The notes: a model not told the origin generated them from the sequence alone. A stretch of DNA of 50,679 nucleotides from Patescibacteria group bacterium (GCA_038065115.1 JBBTRS010000004.1:1-50679), one strand, 5' to 3'. Counted from the first letter of the stretch, positions 7,223-10,560 are shown. Numbers and translations: made by a program.

Positions 7223-7865
7223 CCAGCCAACGGTAATATTTATTATAAAAAGGATTTTCCCAAAGCAATAAAACTCCGTAATCCAAACTTTCCGGGTCCT
7301 TAAAATAATTAGGGATAGCTTTAATTATTTTTAAACCTGATTTTTTATAAAAATCAATTTCTGGATCTAATGACCTGTGACCTTTTTCGGTATCAGTGAC
7401 GGCATTTATATATTCCTCTACAGTCATCTTGTTTGCATATTTATAATACAGAGGTAATCTACCGCCGAGCATTCCATATTTAACATTGTAGCGAATAGCC
7501 AGTTTGCCAATACCTTCCAAGAGTTGCGTGCCAACTCCCAAATGCTGATAGGAAGGCATTACGCTTAAATCCACGCCATAAACTACACGACCATCTGCTT
7601 TATGGGAATTTTTGATAAATCCGTTATCAGTTATTTCATACCAGGTAAAAGCACTATTATTAAAATCATAATCAACTCTTTCCGTAAAAACTACCCCAAT
7701 AATTTCTTTATTGCTTTCTGCCACCAATGCTCCCCCCGGAAATGTTTTTATCCTTGATTCAATCATTTCTTTTGAGGCAGATTTTTCTTTACCCCACGCT
7801 ATTTCTTCTATCAACAAAATTTTAGGAATATCCTCGTTTTTCGCTTGTCTTATCTTAATTTTCAT
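7200..7865 (-). CDS. GNAT-family N-acetyltransferase (221 aa, with C-terminal extension)
   Basis: GNAT core: VDLSVMPSYQHLGVGTQLLEGIGKLA. Confidence 0.75.
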   Translation of the reverse strand: MKIKIRQAKNEDIPKILLIEEIAWGKEKSASKEMIESRIKTFPGGALVAESNKEIIGVVFTERVDYDFNNSAFTWYEITDNGFIKNSHKADGRVVYGVDLSVMPSYQHLGVGTQLLEGIGKLAIRYNVKYGMLGGRLPLYYKYANKMTVEEYINAVTDTEKGHRSLDPEIDFYKKSGLKIIKAIPNYFKDPESLDYGVLLLWENPFYNKYYRWLAAKLFKV

Positions 7866-8001
7866 TTTTCAAACAAAAAAACGCCGGAAATGGCGCTTTT
7901 GAGATAAAACCGTCCTTCGGCCGTTGTGATGAACGAATTTTGGAAATTGTTTGATTATCTCCCTCCAACCGATAGCTTTCATATTGGCTATGATACAAGA
8001 T
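7849..8001. repeat. 153-bp perfect direct repeat, copy 1 (GNAT start codon plus upstream leader)
   Basis: Base-for-base identical to 10408..10560 (offset 2559). Weaker similarity continues to about 8026 / 10586. Confidence 0.9.
7876..7900 (-). terminator. Terminator/attenuator hairpin in the GNAT 5' leader
   Basis: Minus strand reads AAAAGCGCC-ATTTCC-GGCGTTTTTTT. The G.U closing pair exists only in the minus-strand RNA. A 7-T run follows, ending about 10 nt before the GNAT ATG. Confidence 0.45.
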
Positions 8002-8102
8002 CTTGGTAGAAAATCAACTTAAAAGCATCTTTTTGGCCTATGATTATAAATTATATGAGTTTTGTTTTGTAAGCAATGAAGATATAATAATATGAAATTG
8101 AT

Positions 8103-10145
8103 ATGGGTATCCCTTGCACAAAAAAAGAAAATGTAATTGAGAAAATACACGGGCATTTGATTAATGACCCATATAGATGGTTGGAAAGTGCCGATACCGA
8201 AGAAACGAAAAAATGGATTGATGCCCAAAATGAACATGCATTTTCATCTCTCAAAAATGGCAATTTTAATATTTTCTTAGATGAACTTGTTAAAAACTTT
8301 AAAACAACAACTTTCTCAAACCCGGTCATTGTAAGAGGCAAATATTTCTATACGGAAAGGCAGCCAAACGAAGATCAATTTGTTATTTACGTAAAAAACG
8401 GATTAAATGGTGAACCTATAAAATTAGTAGACCCTAATGGCGCGAACAAAGAAAACACGGTATCTATTGATTATTGGTCGGAGTCTCGCAGCGGTAAATA
8501 TATCGCCTATGGCTTATCTGAAGGCGGGACAGAAATGTCAACTCTTTATATTAAAAATGTAGATACAAAAGAGGATCTACCCGATACAATAGTTAATTGC
8601 AGACATTCTCCAATCTGTTGGCTTCCCGATGATTCTGGATTTTTTTACACTAGAAATCCCCGGCCAAACACTGTTCCAAAAAATGAAGAACATTTACATA
8701 CAAAGGCGTATTTCCATAAACTCGGCGACAATCCTGATGACGATGAATTAATTTTCGGAAAGGATAGACCAAAAGATGACATGATTGGGCTTTCGCTTTC
8801 ATTAGACGGAAATTACTTAGCCATTAATGCTTCTCGGGAATGGACCCGAAACGATATTTACGTTTTTGATTGTAAAAATAAAAAAATAATTCCCTTAATA
8901 AAAGGAGTTGATGCAAGGTTTTTGCTGTGGTTTGCTTTAAACAAAGCTTTAATCTTAACTAATTATAAAGCAAATAATTACAGGGTTCTTTCAACGTCTC
9001 TTAATGATTTATTCGCACCGATAGAAGAATGGGAAGAAATGATACCAGAAAGAGATTACCTTCTTGAGTATATTTCTATAACAAAAGAAAAAATAATCGC
9101 CCAATATCTAAAGAATGCCTGTTCAAAAGTAATTATTTTTGATTATCTAGGAAATGAAAAAGGCGAGATCCCATTGCCCGCCTATTCAAGCACCGCGGGT
9201 ATTTCTACTAATAGAGAAGAGAATGAATTTTTCTATGGCGTGAGTTCATTCACTTTCCCTAAAATAATATATAGGCATGATCCCATTTTAAATAAATATG
9301 CAGAATATCGTAGAATTGACAATCCAATAAACCCCGACGATTACGTGATTGAACAAGAATGGTTTACGTCAAAAGATAATACAAAAATTCCTATATTTAT
9401 CTTCCATAAAAAAAATCTCGTTAAAAATGGGCTTAATCCTGCAATTCTTTATGGATACGGAGGGTTTTCTGTAAGCCAAACGCCCGCTTTTATCAGAAAT
9501 TGGACTCCATGGCTTGAAAAAAATGGTGTATTCGCTATTCCGAATATACGCGGCGGATCAGAATTTGGCTCCACTTGGCACACGCAGGCCATAAAAGAGA
9601 ATAAACAAAAAAGCTTTGACGATTTTATTGCTGCTGCGGAATTTTTAATTAATCAAAAATACACCGATAATAATCATCTTGGCATAATTGGTGGAAGTAA
9701 CGGGGGTTTGCTGGTCGCAACCGTTGCAGTTCAAAAACCAGATTTATTTAAAGCTGTATGTTCGATAGTTCCGCTAACCGATATGGTCCGTTTCCCTAAA
9801 TTTGGAATGGCGATAAGATGGGTGCATGAGTACGGAAATCCAGAAAAAAAAGAAGAGTTGGAAAATATTTTGAAGTGGAGTCCATATCATAATGTAAAAG
9901 AAAATATTGAATACCCTAATTTTCTATTCACAACAGGACTAAAAGATTCTAGAGTTGACCCCCTACATGCAAGAAAAATGACTGCAATATTGCAGTCTAT
10001 GAATAAAAAAAACGAGGTTTTAATCTTCACTGAAATAGAAGTAGGCCATGGTCTAGGCAAACCAATTTCTAAAATTGTTGAAAAACAAGCATTAGTATTA
10101 AGTTTTTTTACAAAATATCTAGACTTAAAAAATCAAGGGAATTGA
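8103..10145 (+). CDS. Prolyl oligopeptidase (peptidase S9A family)
   Basis: 680 aa. N-terminal DPYRWLE signature, beta-propeller region, catalytic-Ser motif GGSNGGLL, and C-terminal D...H (DSRVDPLHARK, GHG). Confidence 0.9.
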   Translation: MGIPCTKKENVIEKIHGHLINDPYRWLESADTEETKKWIDAQNEHAFSSLKNGNFNIFLDELVKNFKTTTFSNPVIVRGKYFYTERQPNEDQFVIYVKNGLNGEPIKLVDPNGANKENTVSIDYWSESRSGKYIAYGLSEGGTEMSTLYIKNVDTKEDLPDTIVNCRHSPICWLPDDSGFFYTRNPRPNTVPKNEEHLHTKAYFHKLGDNPDDDELIFGKDRPKDDMIGLSLSLDGNYLAINASREWTRNDIYVFDCKNKKIIPLIKGVDARFLLWFALNKALILTNYKANNYRVLSTSLNDLFAPIEEWEEMIPERDYLLEYISITKEKIIAQYLKNACSKVIIFDYLGNEKGEIPLPAYSSTAGISTNREENEFFYGVSSFTFPKIIYRHDPILNKYAEYRRIDNPINPDDYVIEQEWFTSKDNTKIPIFIFHKKNLVKNGLNPAILYGYGGFSVSQTPAFIRNWTPWLEKNGVFAIPNIRGGSEFGSTWHTQAIKENKQKSFDDFIAAAEFLINQKYTDNNHLGIIGGSNGGLLVATVAVQKPDLFKAVCSIVPLTDMVRFPKFGMAIRWVHEYGNPEKKEELENILKWSPYHNVKENIEYPNFLFTTGLKDSRVDPLHARKMTAILQSMNKKNEVLIFTEIEVGHGLGKPISKIVEKQALVLSFFTKYLDLKNQGN

Positions 10146-10167
10146 AAAGTGAGTTAAAAAATAAAAG

Positions 10168-10198
10168 GAGGGGCGTAAAAAACAGGATTACGCCCCTC
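10168..10198 (-). terminator. Intrinsic terminator (11-bp stem GAGGGGCGTAA / TTACGCCCCTC)
   Basis: Lies between the convergent oligopeptidase gene and the 21-aa mini-ORF. A T-rich tail (CTTTTATTTTTT) follows on the minus strand and an A-rich tract precedes on the plus strand, so it may act in both directions. Confidence 0.7.
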
Positions 10199-10212
10199 TT
10201 CAAATAATGGCT

Positions 10213-10278
10213 CTAATCTCCATTCATCGGAAAATTGCCATTATTATCCATGGTGGTTCCTTCAACGGGATCAATCAT
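10213..10278 (-). CDS. Unannotated 21-aa peptide MIDPVEGTTMDNNGNFPMNGD
   Basis: Hand-translated. SD AAGGAGGTG lies 7 nt upstream of the ATG. A strong terminator follows 15 nt after the stop, and a TTGACA-N17-AATACT promoter-like site lies upstream. Confidence 0.55.
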   Translation of the reverse strand: MIDPVEGTTMDNNGNFPMNGD

Positions 10279-10337
10279 GTACGCACCTCCTTTCTTTTTC
10301 AATTTTTAATGTTCAATCAAATACTCTTACTGCTACT

Positions 10338-10366
10338 AGTATTTAATAAATCAATTATTTTGTCAA
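10338..10366 (-). promoter_or_regulatory. Sigma70-like promoter candidate (TTGACA-17 nt-AATACT) for the 21-aa mini-ORF
   Basis: Read on the minus strand. The -10 element lies about 60 nt upstream of the ATG. The AT-rich context makes chance matches likely. Confidence 0.35.
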
Positions 10367-10407
10367 ATTTTTTAATTTATACTTAGCGGATAATTATTTA
10401 AAATTAC

Positions 10408-10560
10408 CTTATCTTAATTTTCATTTTTCAAACAAAAAAACGCCGGAAATGGCGCTTTTGAGATAAAACCGTCCTTCGGCCGTTGTGATGAACGAATTTT
10501 GGAAATTGTTTGATTATCTCCCTCCAACCGATAGCTTTCATATTGGCTATGATACAAGAT
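10408..10560. repeat. 153-bp perfect direct repeat, copy 2
   Basis: Identical to 7849..8001. Retains a relic of the GNAT start (ATG AAA ATT AAG ATA AGG TAA = MKIKIR-stop) on the minus strand. Confidence 0.9.
10435..10459 (-). terminator. Terminator hairpin (second copy), positioned downstream of the kinase gene
   Basis: Same sequence as 7876..7900. Here it lies about 165 nt downstream of the stop of the 10624..11550 gene. Confidence 0.45.

What the first reader, a model, noticed from the sequence alone, without database searches (positions are those of the whole stretch)
7849..10560. 153-bp perfect direct repeat flanks a prolyl-oligopeptidase + 21-aa-peptide cassette and preserves a relic start codon
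Positions 7849..8001 and 10408..10560 are identical base for base, at an offset of 2559 bp. Degraded similarity continues for about 25 more bp. Copy 1 includes the first six codons of the 221-aa GNAT gene plus its upstream leader. Copy 2 keeps those six codons and then hits an immediate stop (MKIKIR-stop). The segment between the repeats carries only the S9A oligopeptidase and the convergent 21-aa mini-ORF with its own promoter-like site and terminator. This implies a recent cassette insertion or duplication. It also creates a substrate for recombinational loss or amplification of the cassette. Together with the 24-bp repeat around the neighbouring module, the island appears to be assembled from repeat-bounded modules.
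Basis: seen in the sequence. Interest (0 to 1): 0.7.

Follow-up and report, generated by a model that had tools for sequence, protein, structure and literature searches.

The report
Duplicated mini-gene flanking a peptidase cassette
The repeat is real: it is two copies of a small promoter, short reading frame and terminator unit on either side of a peptidase gene in a groundwater Patescibacteria genome, and the copies are identical in this assembly only because one recently overwrote the other, not because the cassette has just arrived.

Summary
Positions 7849-8001 and 10408-10560 are identical, and similarity runs to about 179 bp. Copy 2 ends in a relic MKIKIR-stop.

The inference of a recent insertion is only partly supported. 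At least five other assemblies of the same population match the window apart from 3 SNPs in 17.8 kb. All carry a copy 1 that differs from copy 2 at 22 sites clustered in 7911-8002. That diverged copy keeps ancestral bases where copy 2 has changed. The copies are therefore old paralogs. The window's perfect identity is a copy 2 to copy 1 gene-conversion tract of at least 82 bp, or less likely an assembly artefact.

The repeated unit is not just a GNAT leader. It is a self-contained unit with four parts:
- a -35/-10 promoter placed 7 nt before an ATG, the leaderless geometry typical of this genome, which rarely uses Shine-Dalgarno sites;
- a 31-37-codon reading frame, the only frame open in all four variants, with dN/dS near 1;
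- an intrinsic terminator overlapped by the end of that frame;
- the next gene's ATG, 4 nt after the stop.

The unit, the peptidase and a conserved acidic 21-25-aa peptide occur together in two related lineages.

Best reading: a translated leader-type attenuator, duplicated around the peptidase-peptide pair and homogenised by gene conversion.

The parts
7849..8026 (-). Copy 1 of the 179-bp element, divergent from POP and directly upstream of GNAT221
   Evidence: repeat; the same element at the same place next to POP in L096 and L097
10408..10586 (-). Copy 2 of the element, between the APH-type kinase gene (10624-11592) and the acidic-peptide gene
   Evidence: identical in all assemblies of the population
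7990..8017 (-). Promoter-like site of copy 1 (TTGATT-16-TATCAT). The -10 box ends 7 nt before the sORF ATG, which is leaderless geometry
   Evidence: conserved in L096 and L097; the same -10-to-ATG geometry occurs at many genes of this window
10549..10576 (-). Promoter-like site of copy 2
7869..7982 (-). 37-codon sORF of copy 1 (MKAIGWREIIKQFPKFVHHNGRRTVLSQKRHFRRFFV in the window; MIVVDWKIMIGKFSKLVHHNGRRIVLSQKRHFRRFFV in the other assemblies)
   Evidence: the only frame of six open in all four variants; P=0.024 that it stays open if the observed substitutions are placed at random; dN/dS 0.65-2.3
10428..10541 (-). 37-codon sORF of copy 2
7870..7900 (-). Intrinsic terminator of copy 1 (AAAAGCGCC-AUUUCC-GGCGUUUUUUU), lying inside the 3' end of the sORF and 11 nt or less before the GNAT ATG
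   Evidence: the stem is kept through G-C/G-U changes and the loop differs in L096, L097 and L083
10429..10459 (-). Intrinsic terminator of copy 2
7911..7992 (-). Minimal gene-conversion tract. At these 21 sites the window's copy 1 carries copy-2 bases, whereas all other assemblies carry the diverged copy-1 allele. Position 8002 is a SNP unique to the window at the edge of the tract
10404..10424 (-). Relic of the GNAT start in copy 2 (ATGAAAATTAAGATAAGGTAA = MKIKIR-stop)
8103..10145 (+). S9A prolyl oligopeptidase, 680 aa
   Evidence: PF02897 2e-84, PF00326 1e-53; member of a very large Patescibacteria family, 60-65% identity to most members
10213..10278 (-). Acidic 21-aa peptide gene MIDPVEGTTMDNNGNFPMNGD with a GGAGGTG ribosome-binding site (10284-10290)
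   Evidence: conserved as MCRDPDPPEGTTPDDDGNYPMNGD (L096) and MIGPDDGPPEGTTPDDDGDYPMNGD (L097), both convergent to POP
10338..10366 (-). Promoter-like site of the peptide gene (TTGACA-17-AATACT), overlapping a palindrome or hairpin
10167..10199 (.). Hairpin terminator shared by the convergent POP and peptide genes (AGGGGCGTAA...TTACGCCCCT)
   Evidence: read from the sequence; the same stem aligns in the incidental Rfam alignment
7200..7865 (-). GNAT221. Its ATG lies 4 nt after the sORF stop (TGA AAA ATG) and it has no promoter or Shine-Dalgarno site of its own
   Evidence: relatives have their own TATAAT promoter upstream

Best explanation
The repeat is two paralogous copies of a small, self-contained transcription unit of about 179 bp, read on the minus strand. 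Each copy has a sigma-70-type promoter whose -10 box sits 7 nt before an ATG, so the mRNA would be leaderless. Next comes a 31-37-codon reading frame whose 3' end runs into or through an intrinsic terminator hairpin. The start codon of the next gene follows 4 nt after the stop.

Inferred mechanism. The short frame is a translated leader. A ribosome that follows RNA polymerase to the stop codon covers the hairpin, so the terminator cannot form. Transcription then continues, and the ribosome re-initiates at the adjacent ATG. When the leader is poorly translated, the transcript ends as an RNA of about 115 nt. Copy 1 gates GNAT221 and the downstream rSAM-SPASM genes in this way. Copy 2 keeps the unit with only a 6-codon relic and sits upstream of the acidic-peptide gene.

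Shown by comparison:
- The two copies bracket a POP plus acidic-peptide pair.
- The element-POP-peptide association is shared with two related lineages.
- The copies are old paralogs kept similar by gene conversion.
- The 153-bp perfect identity of this window comes from one further, strain-specific conversion of copy 1 by copy 2. The tract is at least 82 bp (7911-7992).

Whichever event first created the duplication, whether insertion of the cassette with a long target duplication or copying of the element to the far side of POP, it was not recent.
For: Repeat and relic start:
- The 153-bp identity, the 179-bp extent and the MKIKIR-stop relic are confirmed.

Gene conversion:
- L001, L002, L003/L091, L090 and the Logan unitigs L093-L095 match the window apart from 3 SNPs in 17.8 kb and 22 differences clustered in 7911-8002.
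- The differences between copy 2 and the population's copy 1 are clustered: 17 of 22 lie in 43 nt (P=5e-7).
- At four sites the diverged copy 1 shares the base of L096 and L097 where copy 2 is derived. It also has 12 unique changes. The two copies therefore have separate histories, and the window allele is copy 2 written over copy 1.
- The switch from copy-1-specific to copy-2 sequence happens within 9 shared bases and is followed by a unique SNP. A k-mer graph with k of 21 or more cannot create such a join without reads that contain it. This last point is my inference.
- In sample ERZ1292616 two contigs break exactly around the variable tract (L004 ends at 7917, L092 starts at 8007). That is what a mixture of alleles would produce.

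Transcription unit:
- The promoter and terminator are detected in both copies and conserved in L096 and L097. The terminator stem keeps pairing through G-C/G-U changes and its loops differ.

sORF:
- It is the only frame open in all four variants, and there are no indels inside it.
- Random placement of the observed substitutions keeps it open in only 2.4% of trials.
- dN/dS is about 1 and there is no third-position bias. This is expected when the act of translation matters, not the peptide sequence.

Genome style:
- About 36 of the 42 gene starts examined lack a Shine-Dalgarno motif. Several have a -10 box a few bases before the start codon, and others start at or beside the previous stop codon.
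- By that rule GNAT221, with a terminator 11 nt upstream and no promoter, should be coupled to the sORF. Its ATG is 4 nt after the sORF stop.
- GNAT relatives without the element have their own TATAAT promoter.

Published principle:
- An intrinsic terminator is almost fully repressed when it lies a few bases after a translated gene (PMC4824070, abstract).
- Tight transcription-translation coupling prevents terminator hairpins from forming (PMC5021804, abstract).

Association with the cassette:
- nhmmer finds the element divergent next to POP in L096 and L097 (E about 1e-37 to 1e-39).
- The 3' end of L097 starts a second copy beyond the peptide gene.
Against: - There is no expression data. Promoter, terminator and translation are all inferred from sequence.
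- Only four distinct variants exist, so the ORF test (P=0.024) and the structural support are modest.
- The most conserved block, TCATCACAACGGCCG, is invariant even at third codon positions. That fits an RNA or DNA signal better than a mere spacer ORF.
- In L096 and L083 the sORF stops in the hairpin loop, 24-27 nt before the next ATG. The stop-to-start coupling distance is therefore not conserved.
- No alternative antiterminator structure was found, and the fold is not unusually stable (z = -0.6 to -1.4).
- The perfect allele was seen in no other assembly, so an artefact in this contig cannot be excluded.
- L096 lacks copy 2, so it is unresolved whether the cassette or the element was the part that moved.
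Confidence: 0.55

Rival explanations
1. The cassette of POP plus peptide was inserted or duplicated very recently into kinase - leader - GNAT, and the perfect 153-bp identity records how recent that was.
For: The repeat is perfect in the window. Copy 2 carries a relic of the GNAT start. GNAT relatives lack POP. The syntenic relative L080 has acyltransferase - ... - GNAT - rSAM - kinase - NusA without POP.
Against: All other assemblies of the same population have a copy 1 that is 13% different from copy 2. It retains ancestral bases. The POP/element junction and the peptide are shared with L096 and L097, whose POP is only 86-89% identical. The arrangement therefore predates this species.
Confidence: 0.08
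2. The two-copy arrangement is real, but the perfect identity is an artefact of this one contig. Consensus polishing or read correction may have carried copy-2 reads onto copy 1.
For: None of the 24 contigs read from ENA, NCBI and Logan carries the perfect allele.
Against: The chimeric join lies within 9 shared bases, too short for a k-mer graph error (inference). The window also has a unique SNP at 8002 and 3 other private SNPs, so it represents a distinct sub-population. In one sample the contigs break exactly around the variable tract.
Confidence: 0.2
3. The element is a non-coding RNA, either a small RNA gene or a structured cis-regulatory leader. The open frame is incidental.
For: Promoter and terminator delimit an RNA of about 115 nt. 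dN/dS is about 1 with no third-position bias. The block TCATCACAACGGCCG is invariant at the nucleotide level. RNAalifold proposes a 7-bp long-range stem (UCGGUUG/CGGCCGA) kept through two one-sided changes, and one compensatory pair in an inner hairpin.
Against: There is no Rfam match. The fold energy is close to that of shuffled sequence. Only one truly compensatory pair was found among 27. This reading leaves GNAT221 without any route to transcription or translation initiation in a genome that relies on leaderless or coupled starts. Maintenance of the ORF is unlikely by chance (P=0.024).
Confidence: 0.2
4. The sORF encodes a functional small basic protein of 31-37 aa, present as two paralogs. 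It might be a partner or antagonist of the acidic peptide, or a nucleic-acid binder.
For: The ORF is maintained. The motifs GW(K/R)xII..F and HHNGR(K/R)x(V/I)LSQKRH are conserved. The sORF is strongly basic whereas the neighbouring conserved peptide is strongly acidic. One copy was called as a gene in a JGI contig (P0229).
Against: dN/dS is about 1. There is no Pfam match. Only one related cluster exists among 1.84 billion representatives. The C-terminus is dictated by the terminator sequence and is missing in L096.
Confidence: 0.12
5. The element is a mobile repeat such as a MITE, or the ends of a composite transposon-like unit that carries POP plus peptide.
For: Direct repeats flank the same two genes in the window and probably in L097, with different outer neighbours. 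In L096 the element carries a 17-codon GNAT relic in a non-syntenic context.
Against: There are no terminal inverted repeats of 20 nt or more and no transposase or recombinase in the cassette. Only two copies occur in 50 kb, and none was found in about 90 other loci. The repeats are direct and contain a gene start, which is not transposon-end anatomy.
Confidence: 0.07

Closest known systems
Translation-coupled transcription attenuation by a leader peptide (the E. coli pyrBI leader type; the general principle is in PMC4824070 and PMC5021804)
   Same: A short ORF starts just after the promoter and extends into an intrinsic terminator that precedes the structural gene. A closely following ribosome would prevent the hairpin from forming. 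The downstream gene has no promoter of its own.
   Different: The leader mRNA appears to be leaderless. No pause or sensing signal can be identified, such as a U-rich pause or a run of regulatory codons beyond a conserved His-His. No antiterminator alternative was found. The unit is duplicated, and one copy gates only a 6-codon relic. Nothing has been tested experimentally.
Concerted evolution of dispersed paralogous repeats by intrachromosomal gene conversion (for example the tufA/tufB genes and rRNA operons; from my own knowledge)
   Same: Two copies 2.5 kb apart have near-identical flanks and a diverged centre. One strain shows a clean replacement tract of at least 82 bp with the donor present in the same genome.
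   Different: The repeats are only about 179 bp long and largely non-coding or regulatory. The event is caught as a polymorphism within one groundwater population.
Insertion flanked by a long duplication of the target (Campbell-type single-crossover integration, or a segmental duplication followed by divergence)
   Same: Direct repeats containing a gene's 5' end bound the inserted genes. A second module in the same island shows the same signature with a 76-bp duplication that preserves both neighbours' C-termini.
   Different: There is no integrase, att-like core or circular-form evidence. The direction, cassette inserted or element copied, is unresolved because L096 has POP, the peptide and one element without copy 2.
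RiPP pathways that depend on a prolyl oligopeptidase (amatoxin POPB, orbitide PCY1, class III lanthipeptide FlaP; from my own knowledge)
   Same: An S9A POP lies next to a conserved peptide of 21-25 aa, below the roughly 30-residue size limit of POP substrates. The peptide has a conserved Pro four residues before the C-terminus and another near the N-terminus. rSAM-SPASM, GNAT and kinase genes are nearby.
   Different: This POP belongs to a very large, apparently housekeeping Patescibacteria family. The peptide is found only in three close lineages. No link between the peptide and the tailoring enzymes has been shown, and the rSAM-SPASM has its own Cys-rich precursor.

Membership tests
Intrinsic (Rho-independent) terminator | G+C-rich hairpin followed directly by a run of U | tested here: met
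   9-bp stem with 4 G-C pairs, a 6-nt loop and a run of seven T directly after GGCG in both copies. The stem is kept through G-C/G-U changes and the loops differ in L096, L097 and L083.
Leader-peptide transcription attenuator (pyrBI type) | A short translated ORF between promoter and structural gene that overlaps the terminator | tested here: met
   The sORF at 7982-7869 runs through the hairpin (7900-7877). In L096 and L083 it stops in the hairpin loop. Translation itself is inferred, not shown.
Leader-peptide transcription attenuator (pyrBI type) | The downstream gene depends on read-through because it has no promoter of its own | tested here: inconclusive
   Only 11 nt separate the terminator from the GNAT ATG, and no promoter-like site lies after the terminator. 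Relatives have their own TATAAT promoter. There is no transcript data.
Leader-peptide transcription attenuator (trp/his type) | Alternative antiterminator pairing and a run of regulatory codons | tested here: not met
   No stable alternative structure was found. The only candidate codon run is a conserved His-His pair.
Riboswitch or other described cis-regulatory RNA (Rfam) | Match to a curated covariance model | tested here: not met
   There is no hit in the element at gathering threshold or at E up to 10.
MITE / insertion-sequence-derived repeat | Terminal inverted repeats, a short target-site duplication and many dispersed copies | tested here: not met
   There is no inverted repeat of 20 nt or more at the ends. 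There are two copies only in the window and none in the other loci held.
Diversity-generating retroelement (template/variable repeat pair) | Differences confined to adenines of one copy | tested here: not met
   The 22 differences are C>T 6, A>G 5, G>A 5, A>T 3, T>C 2 and C>A 1. The same transition-rich spectrum is seen between species.
Gene-conversion tract between paralogous repeats | A contiguous block of differences from sister genomes, all matching the paralog in the same genome, with otherwise identical flanks | tested here: met
   21 of the 22 clustered differences (7911-7992) equal copy 2, and there are only 3 other SNPs in 17.8 kb.
POP-dependent RiPP system | A dedicated POP co-conserved with a precursor peptide whose core is bounded by Pro | tested here: inconclusive
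   The peptide and POP are adjacent in three lineages, with conserved Pro residues. The peptide is absent next to POP in L098 and L100 (69-71% POP identity); L099 (84%) ends at the POP stop and is uninformative on this. This POP belongs to a very broad family.

The most novel reading that the evidence does not exclude
The acidic 21-25-aa peptide (conserved ...EGTTxDxxG(N/D)(F/Y)PMNGD, with Pro near both ends) may be a substrate of the adjacent prolyl oligopeptidase, cut or cyclised at the two Pro residues. The duplicated leader unit would then place this peptide gene and the GNAT / rSAM-SPASM operon under the same translation-sensing switch. That would be a previously unknown POP-dependent peptide pathway in ultra-small Patescibacteria, built by repeat-bounded module insertion.
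Probability: 0.1. Interest if true: 0.75.

Novelty: new member of a known kind. Interest (0 to 1): 0.4.

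Why it matters
- Perfect identity between nearby repeats in a metagenome contig is not a clock for insertion. Sister assemblies show that the copies are old and that one strain has just been homogenised. This catches gene conversion as a within-population polymorphism in an uncultivated, ultra-small bacterium.
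- The work defines a compact regulatory unit: leaderless short ORF, embedded terminator and coupled start. It fits the unusual gene-start style of this genome, which rarely uses Shine-Dalgarno sites. It may show how such organisms gate accessory operons.
- The island of GNAT, radical-SAM, peptidase and kinase genes shows at least two insertions that each duplicated 76-179 bp of the target. Each duplication kept both neighbouring genes intact.
- These are useful details for people who study genome plasticity and small-ORF regulation in the candidate phyla radiation. None of them overturns current understanding.

Tried and rejected
- Rfam at gathering threshold and at E up to 10 gave no hit in the element.
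- Single-sequence and two-sequence folds showed only the terminator to be robust (z = -0.6 to -1.4).
- Other reading frames were rejected. The plus-strand 26-27-aa ORF (MMNEFWKLF...) and the 47-aa TTG ORF are interrupted by stops in the other variants.
- A recalled resemblance of the sORF to ribosomal protein L34 was not borne out. Pfam gave no hit for any of the four sORF variants other than two weak sub-threshold matches for one of them.
- A diversity-generating retroelement was rejected on the substitution spectrum.
- A hypermutation tract was rejected because the same transition bias is seen between species.
- A MITE or transposon was rejected: no terminal inverted repeats and no extra copies.
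- The covariance-model hits in L010 (E = 0.005 and 0.016) are false positives driven by the terminator. They lie in an unrelated direct repeat of about 400 bp formed by a duplicated gene end.
- I looked for the element upstream of GNAT homologs. It is absent from about 85 loci, including relatives at 67-74% identity. Only L083 (78%) shows the terminator plus GNAT start, and that contig is cut there.
- I looked for excised (kinase - element - GNAT) or tandem variants. None was seen among 14 GNAT-bearing and 10 POP-bearing contigs. Short unitigs cannot show them.
- The metagenome scan with GNAT221 returned only 4 loci, none with the element.
- Literature searches found nothing on POP or leaderless translation in Patescibacteria.

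Full report
**1. The observation.**
- Positions 7849-8001 and 10408-10560 are identical, 153 bp at an offset of 2559. Similarity continues to 7849-8026 / 10408-10586, 179 bp at 97.8%.
- There are only two copies in the window.
- All the features below read on the minus strand, in this order:
  - APH-type kinase (12765-11851);
  - APH-type kinase (11592-10624);
  - copy 2;
  - a 21-aa ORF (10278-10213);
  - a shared hairpin terminator;
  - the S9A prolyl oligopeptidase (POP), which lies on the plus strand (8103-10145);
  - copy 1;
  - GNAT221 (7865-7200);
  - a rSAM-SPASM maturase (7021-5576);
  - a 37-aa Cys-rich ORF (5538-5425);
  - GNAT151 (5354-4899);
  - a RaSEA-like radical SAM gene, which lies on the plus strand (3814-4881);
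  - a 7TM histidine kinase (3791-2205).
- Copy 1 ends with the first six GNAT codons. Copy 2 reads ATGAAAATTAAGATAAGGTAA, which is MKIKIR-stop.

**2. The repeat is not a mis-join, but the perfect identity is unique to this contig.**
- The window comes from a Patescibacteria population in Hainich groundwater, well H52. Exact-protein look-ups recovered 14 contigs carrying GNAT221 and 10 carrying POP, from ENA assemblies, an NCBI MAG (GCA_964360615.1) and Logan unitigs.
- The long ENA contigs L001, L002 and L090 reproduce the order kinase - copy 2 - peptide - POP - copy 1 - GNAT. The MAG contig and the unitigs break inside the repeat, as expected for a true repeat.
- Over 17,865 bp, L001 differs from the window at 25 positions. 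Twenty-two of them lie in 7911-8002, inside copy 1.
- L002, L003/L091, L090 and L093-L095 all carry this same diverged copy 1.
- In those assemblies copy 1 and copy 2 are only 86.6% identical over 179 bp. Seventeen of the 22 differences fall in a central 43 nt (P=5e-7).
- In the window, copy 1 carries the copy-2 base at all 21 sites in 7911-7992. It also has one private SNP at 8002.

**3. The direction and age of the change.**
- I compared the sORF part of the element across four variants: copy 2, the population's copy 1, and the orthologous elements in L096 and L097.
- The population's copy 1 shares the base of L096 and L097 at four sites where copy 2 is derived. It also has 12 unique changes.
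- The two copies therefore have long separate histories, and the population's copy 1 is not a recent copy of copy 2.
- The window allele matches copy 2 even at the sites where copy 2 is derived. It is therefore copy 2 written over copy 1, a gene-conversion tract of at least 82 bp.
- The flanks (promoter, terminator, GNAT start) are identical between the two copies in every assembly, yet they differ from L096 and L097. This suggests earlier rounds of conversion.
- An artefact is less likely, at roughly 20%, for three reasons.
  - The switch from copy-1-specific to copy-2 sequence occurs within 9 shared bases, too short for a k-mer graph error. This is my inference.
  - The window has private SNPs.
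  - In sample ERZ1292616 the contigs end at 7917 and restart at 8007, exactly around the variable tract. A mixture of alleles would cause that.

**4. What the repeated unit is.** Each copy contains four parts.
- A promoter-like site, TTGATT-16-TATCAT.
- An ATG 7 nt after the -10 box, opening a 37-codon frame.
- An intrinsic terminator, AAAAGCGCC-AUUUCC-GGCGUUUUUUU, lying inside the last codons of that frame.
- The next ATG, 4 nt after the stop (TGA AAA ATG).

Evidence on the nature of the unit:
- There is no Rfam match. Apart from the terminator the RNA folds no better than shuffled sequence.
- Across the four variants this is the only one of six frames that stays open, and it contains no indels.
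- Re-placing the observed substitutions at random keeps the frame open in 2.4% of trials.
- dN/dS is about 1, and the variable columns are spread 10/11/9 over the three codon positions. The peptide sequence therefore seems unconstrained while the frame is kept. That is the pattern expected of a regulatory leader ORF.
- About 36 of the 42 gene starts examined in this window lack a Shine-Dalgarno motif. Several have a -10 box a few bases before the start codon, and others begin at or beside the previous stop codon. The sORF fits the first pattern and GNAT221 fits the second.
- GNAT221 has no room for a promoter of its own, because the terminator lies 11 nt upstream. GNAT relatives that lack the element have a clear TATAAT promoter.
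- Published work shows that a terminator placed a few bases after a translated gene is almost fully repressed (PMC4824070). It also shows that tight transcription-translation coupling blocks hairpin formation (PMC5021804).

I therefore favour a translated leader with an embedded terminator, that is, translation-coupled attenuation followed by re-initiation. Points against this reading:
- There are only four variants.
- The block TCATCACAACGGCCG is invariant even at third codon positions.
- The distance from the sORF stop to the next ATG varies: it is 4 nt here, 10 nt in L097 and 24-27 nt in L096 and L083.
- No antiterminator structure was found.

**5. The element's relation to the cassette.**
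- POP belongs to a very large Patescibacteria family. 2830 hits scored E of 1e-100 or better, and most of the 120 best hits listed were 60-65% identical.
- The two closest POPs are L097 (89% identity) and L096 (86%). Both carry the element at the same place, divergent from POP, with a conserved POP-promoter/element junction.
- Both also carry a convergent small peptide with a GGAGG ribosome-binding site. The three versions are MIDPVEGTTMDNNGNFPMNGD (window), MCRDPDPPEGTTPDDDGNYPMNGD (L096) and MIGPDDGPPEGTTPDDDGDYPMNGD (L097).
- The contig end of L097 begins a second copy beyond the peptide gene. L096 has no second copy.
- In L096 the element is followed by a 17-codon GNAT relic in a non-syntenic context. 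In L097 it is followed by a different gene.
- L098, L099 and L100 (69-84% POP identity) lack the element. L098 and L100 also lack the peptide; L099 ends at the POP stop and cannot show it.
- About 85 loci with GNAT221 homologs lack POP and the element.
- The element therefore travels with POP and the peptide in a narrow clade. The arrangement predates the window's species.
- It remains unresolved whether the cassette was inserted into element-GNAT with a 179-bp target duplication, or whether the element plus 17 nt of GNAT was copied to the far side of the cassette.

**6. Modular assembly of the island.**
- GNAT221, the RaSEA-like rSAM (TIGR01210, 229.7 bits against a cutoff of 212) and the HisKA_7TM kinase form a module conserved across many phyla. 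The GNAT and rSAM genes are often convergent and overlapping.
- In the window a 2.25-kb block of rSAM-SPASM, a Cys-rich 37-aa peptide and GNAT151 sits between GNAT221 and the rSAM gene. It is bounded by a second direct repeat, 4819-4893 / 7148-7222 (80%).
- Each copy of that repeat keeps the C-terminus of its adjacent gene and a relic of the other gene's C-terminus.

**7. Verdict.**
- The thing is a duplicated small regulatory unit: leaderless short ORF, terminator and coupled start. It flanks a POP-peptide pair and is kept similar by gene conversion. One conversion event is visible as a strain polymorphism.
- It is a new member of known kinds (leader-type attenuators, and concerted evolution of repeats) and is of moderate interest.
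- The most novel reading still open is a POP-dependent peptide pathway under the duplicated switch, at a probability of about 0.1.

Noticed in passing
window 4819-4893 and 7148-7222: A second direct repeat (80% over 76 bp) bounds the block of rSAM-SPASM, Cys-rich peptide and GNAT151. Copy B encodes the GNAT221 C-terminus (...AKLFKV*) on the minus strand and a relic rSAM355 C-terminus (DCKKGWRKLVKL*) on the plus strand. Copy A holds the real rSAM355 C-terminus and a relic AKLFKV*. This is the signature of an insertion into the overlapping 3' ends of two convergent genes, with duplication of the target.
   Followed up: partly
window 5425-5538 (-): A 37-aa ORF, MKHVKLLRSAQGLPKTVKSKRSKAVKYSTCMCCDQQD, lies directly downstream of the rSAM-SPASM maturase. 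That maturase's best NCBIfam matches are QhpD, SCIFF and PapB thioether-forming maturases. The ORF is a likely ranthipeptide-type precursor and was called as a gene in L003 and L004.
   Followed up: partly
window 2205-7865; loci L013-L018, L020, L025, L032, L034, L046, L070, L080-L082: GNAT221, a RaSEA-like radical SAM protein (TIGR01210, above its cutoff) and a HisKA_7TM histidine kinase form a three-gene module. It is conserved in Patescibacteria, Clostridia, Gammaproteobacteria, Omnitrophota, Elusimicrobiota and others. Bacillus and Priestia species carry the GNAT alone. The function is unknown; it could be a signal-producing and signal-sensing pair.
   Followed up: partly
window 10213-10290 (-): The acidic peptide gene has a strong GGAGGTG ribosome-binding site. 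About 36 of the 42 gene starts examined in this window lack any Shine-Dalgarno motif. Its C-terminal G(N/D)(F/Y)PMNGD is invariant in three lineages.
   Followed up: partly
window 10320-10356 (-); L094, L096: The peptide gene's -10 box and early transcript overlap a palindrome or hairpin (AAAUACU...AGUAUUU). The Logan unitig L094 differs from the window at 8 clustered sites here. L096 has a 14-bp perfect hairpin at the same place (z = -4.4). This may be an operator or an RNA hairpin that changes by clustered, partly compensatory substitutions.
   Followed up: partly
whole window: Several gene starts have a -10-like box (TATAAT or TATAGT) 6-9 nt before the start codon, and others begin at or beside the previous stop codon. 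Shine-Dalgarno motifs are rare. The genome seems to rely on leaderless and coupled initiation.
   Followed up: partly
window 3001-13000: The accessory island has 31-35% G+C, against 38-46% in the flanking core genes such as NusA, PNPase and ribosomal protein S15. A tRNA gene lies at 2097-2168 (-), next to the island.
   Followed up: no
L010 2188-2584 and 5933-6330: In a Parcubacteria MAG (VMGY01000012.1) a direct repeat of about 400 bp (86-88%), made of a duplicated gene end plus terminator, flanks the GNAT homolog, a rSAM-SPASM gene, a 225-aa gene and a relic of the RaSEA-like gene. Further downstream lie a methyltransferase, another rSAM gene and a Cys/Asp/Gly-rich 83-aa ORF. This is another repeat-bounded rearrangement at the same module.
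   Followed up: partly
L084 1-1726: In a JGI contig the rSAM-SPASM and GNAT151 pair lies upstream of the GNAT221 homolog, not downstream as in the window. This sub-module therefore occupies different positions in different lineages.
   Followed up: no
window 11670-11819 (-): A 49-aa ORF (MHKKGIIFLTSTGLSSQNVYNKFKEIVDSRNFEKAVIVTTAASDKENNQ) lies between the two APH-type kinase genes. It was called as a gene in the other assemblies. It was not scanned against any protein-family library here.
   Followed up: no
window 50490-50522 and 18465-18488: The self-BLAST shows a 33-bp near-perfect palindrome and a 24-bp perfect palindrome.
   Followed up: no
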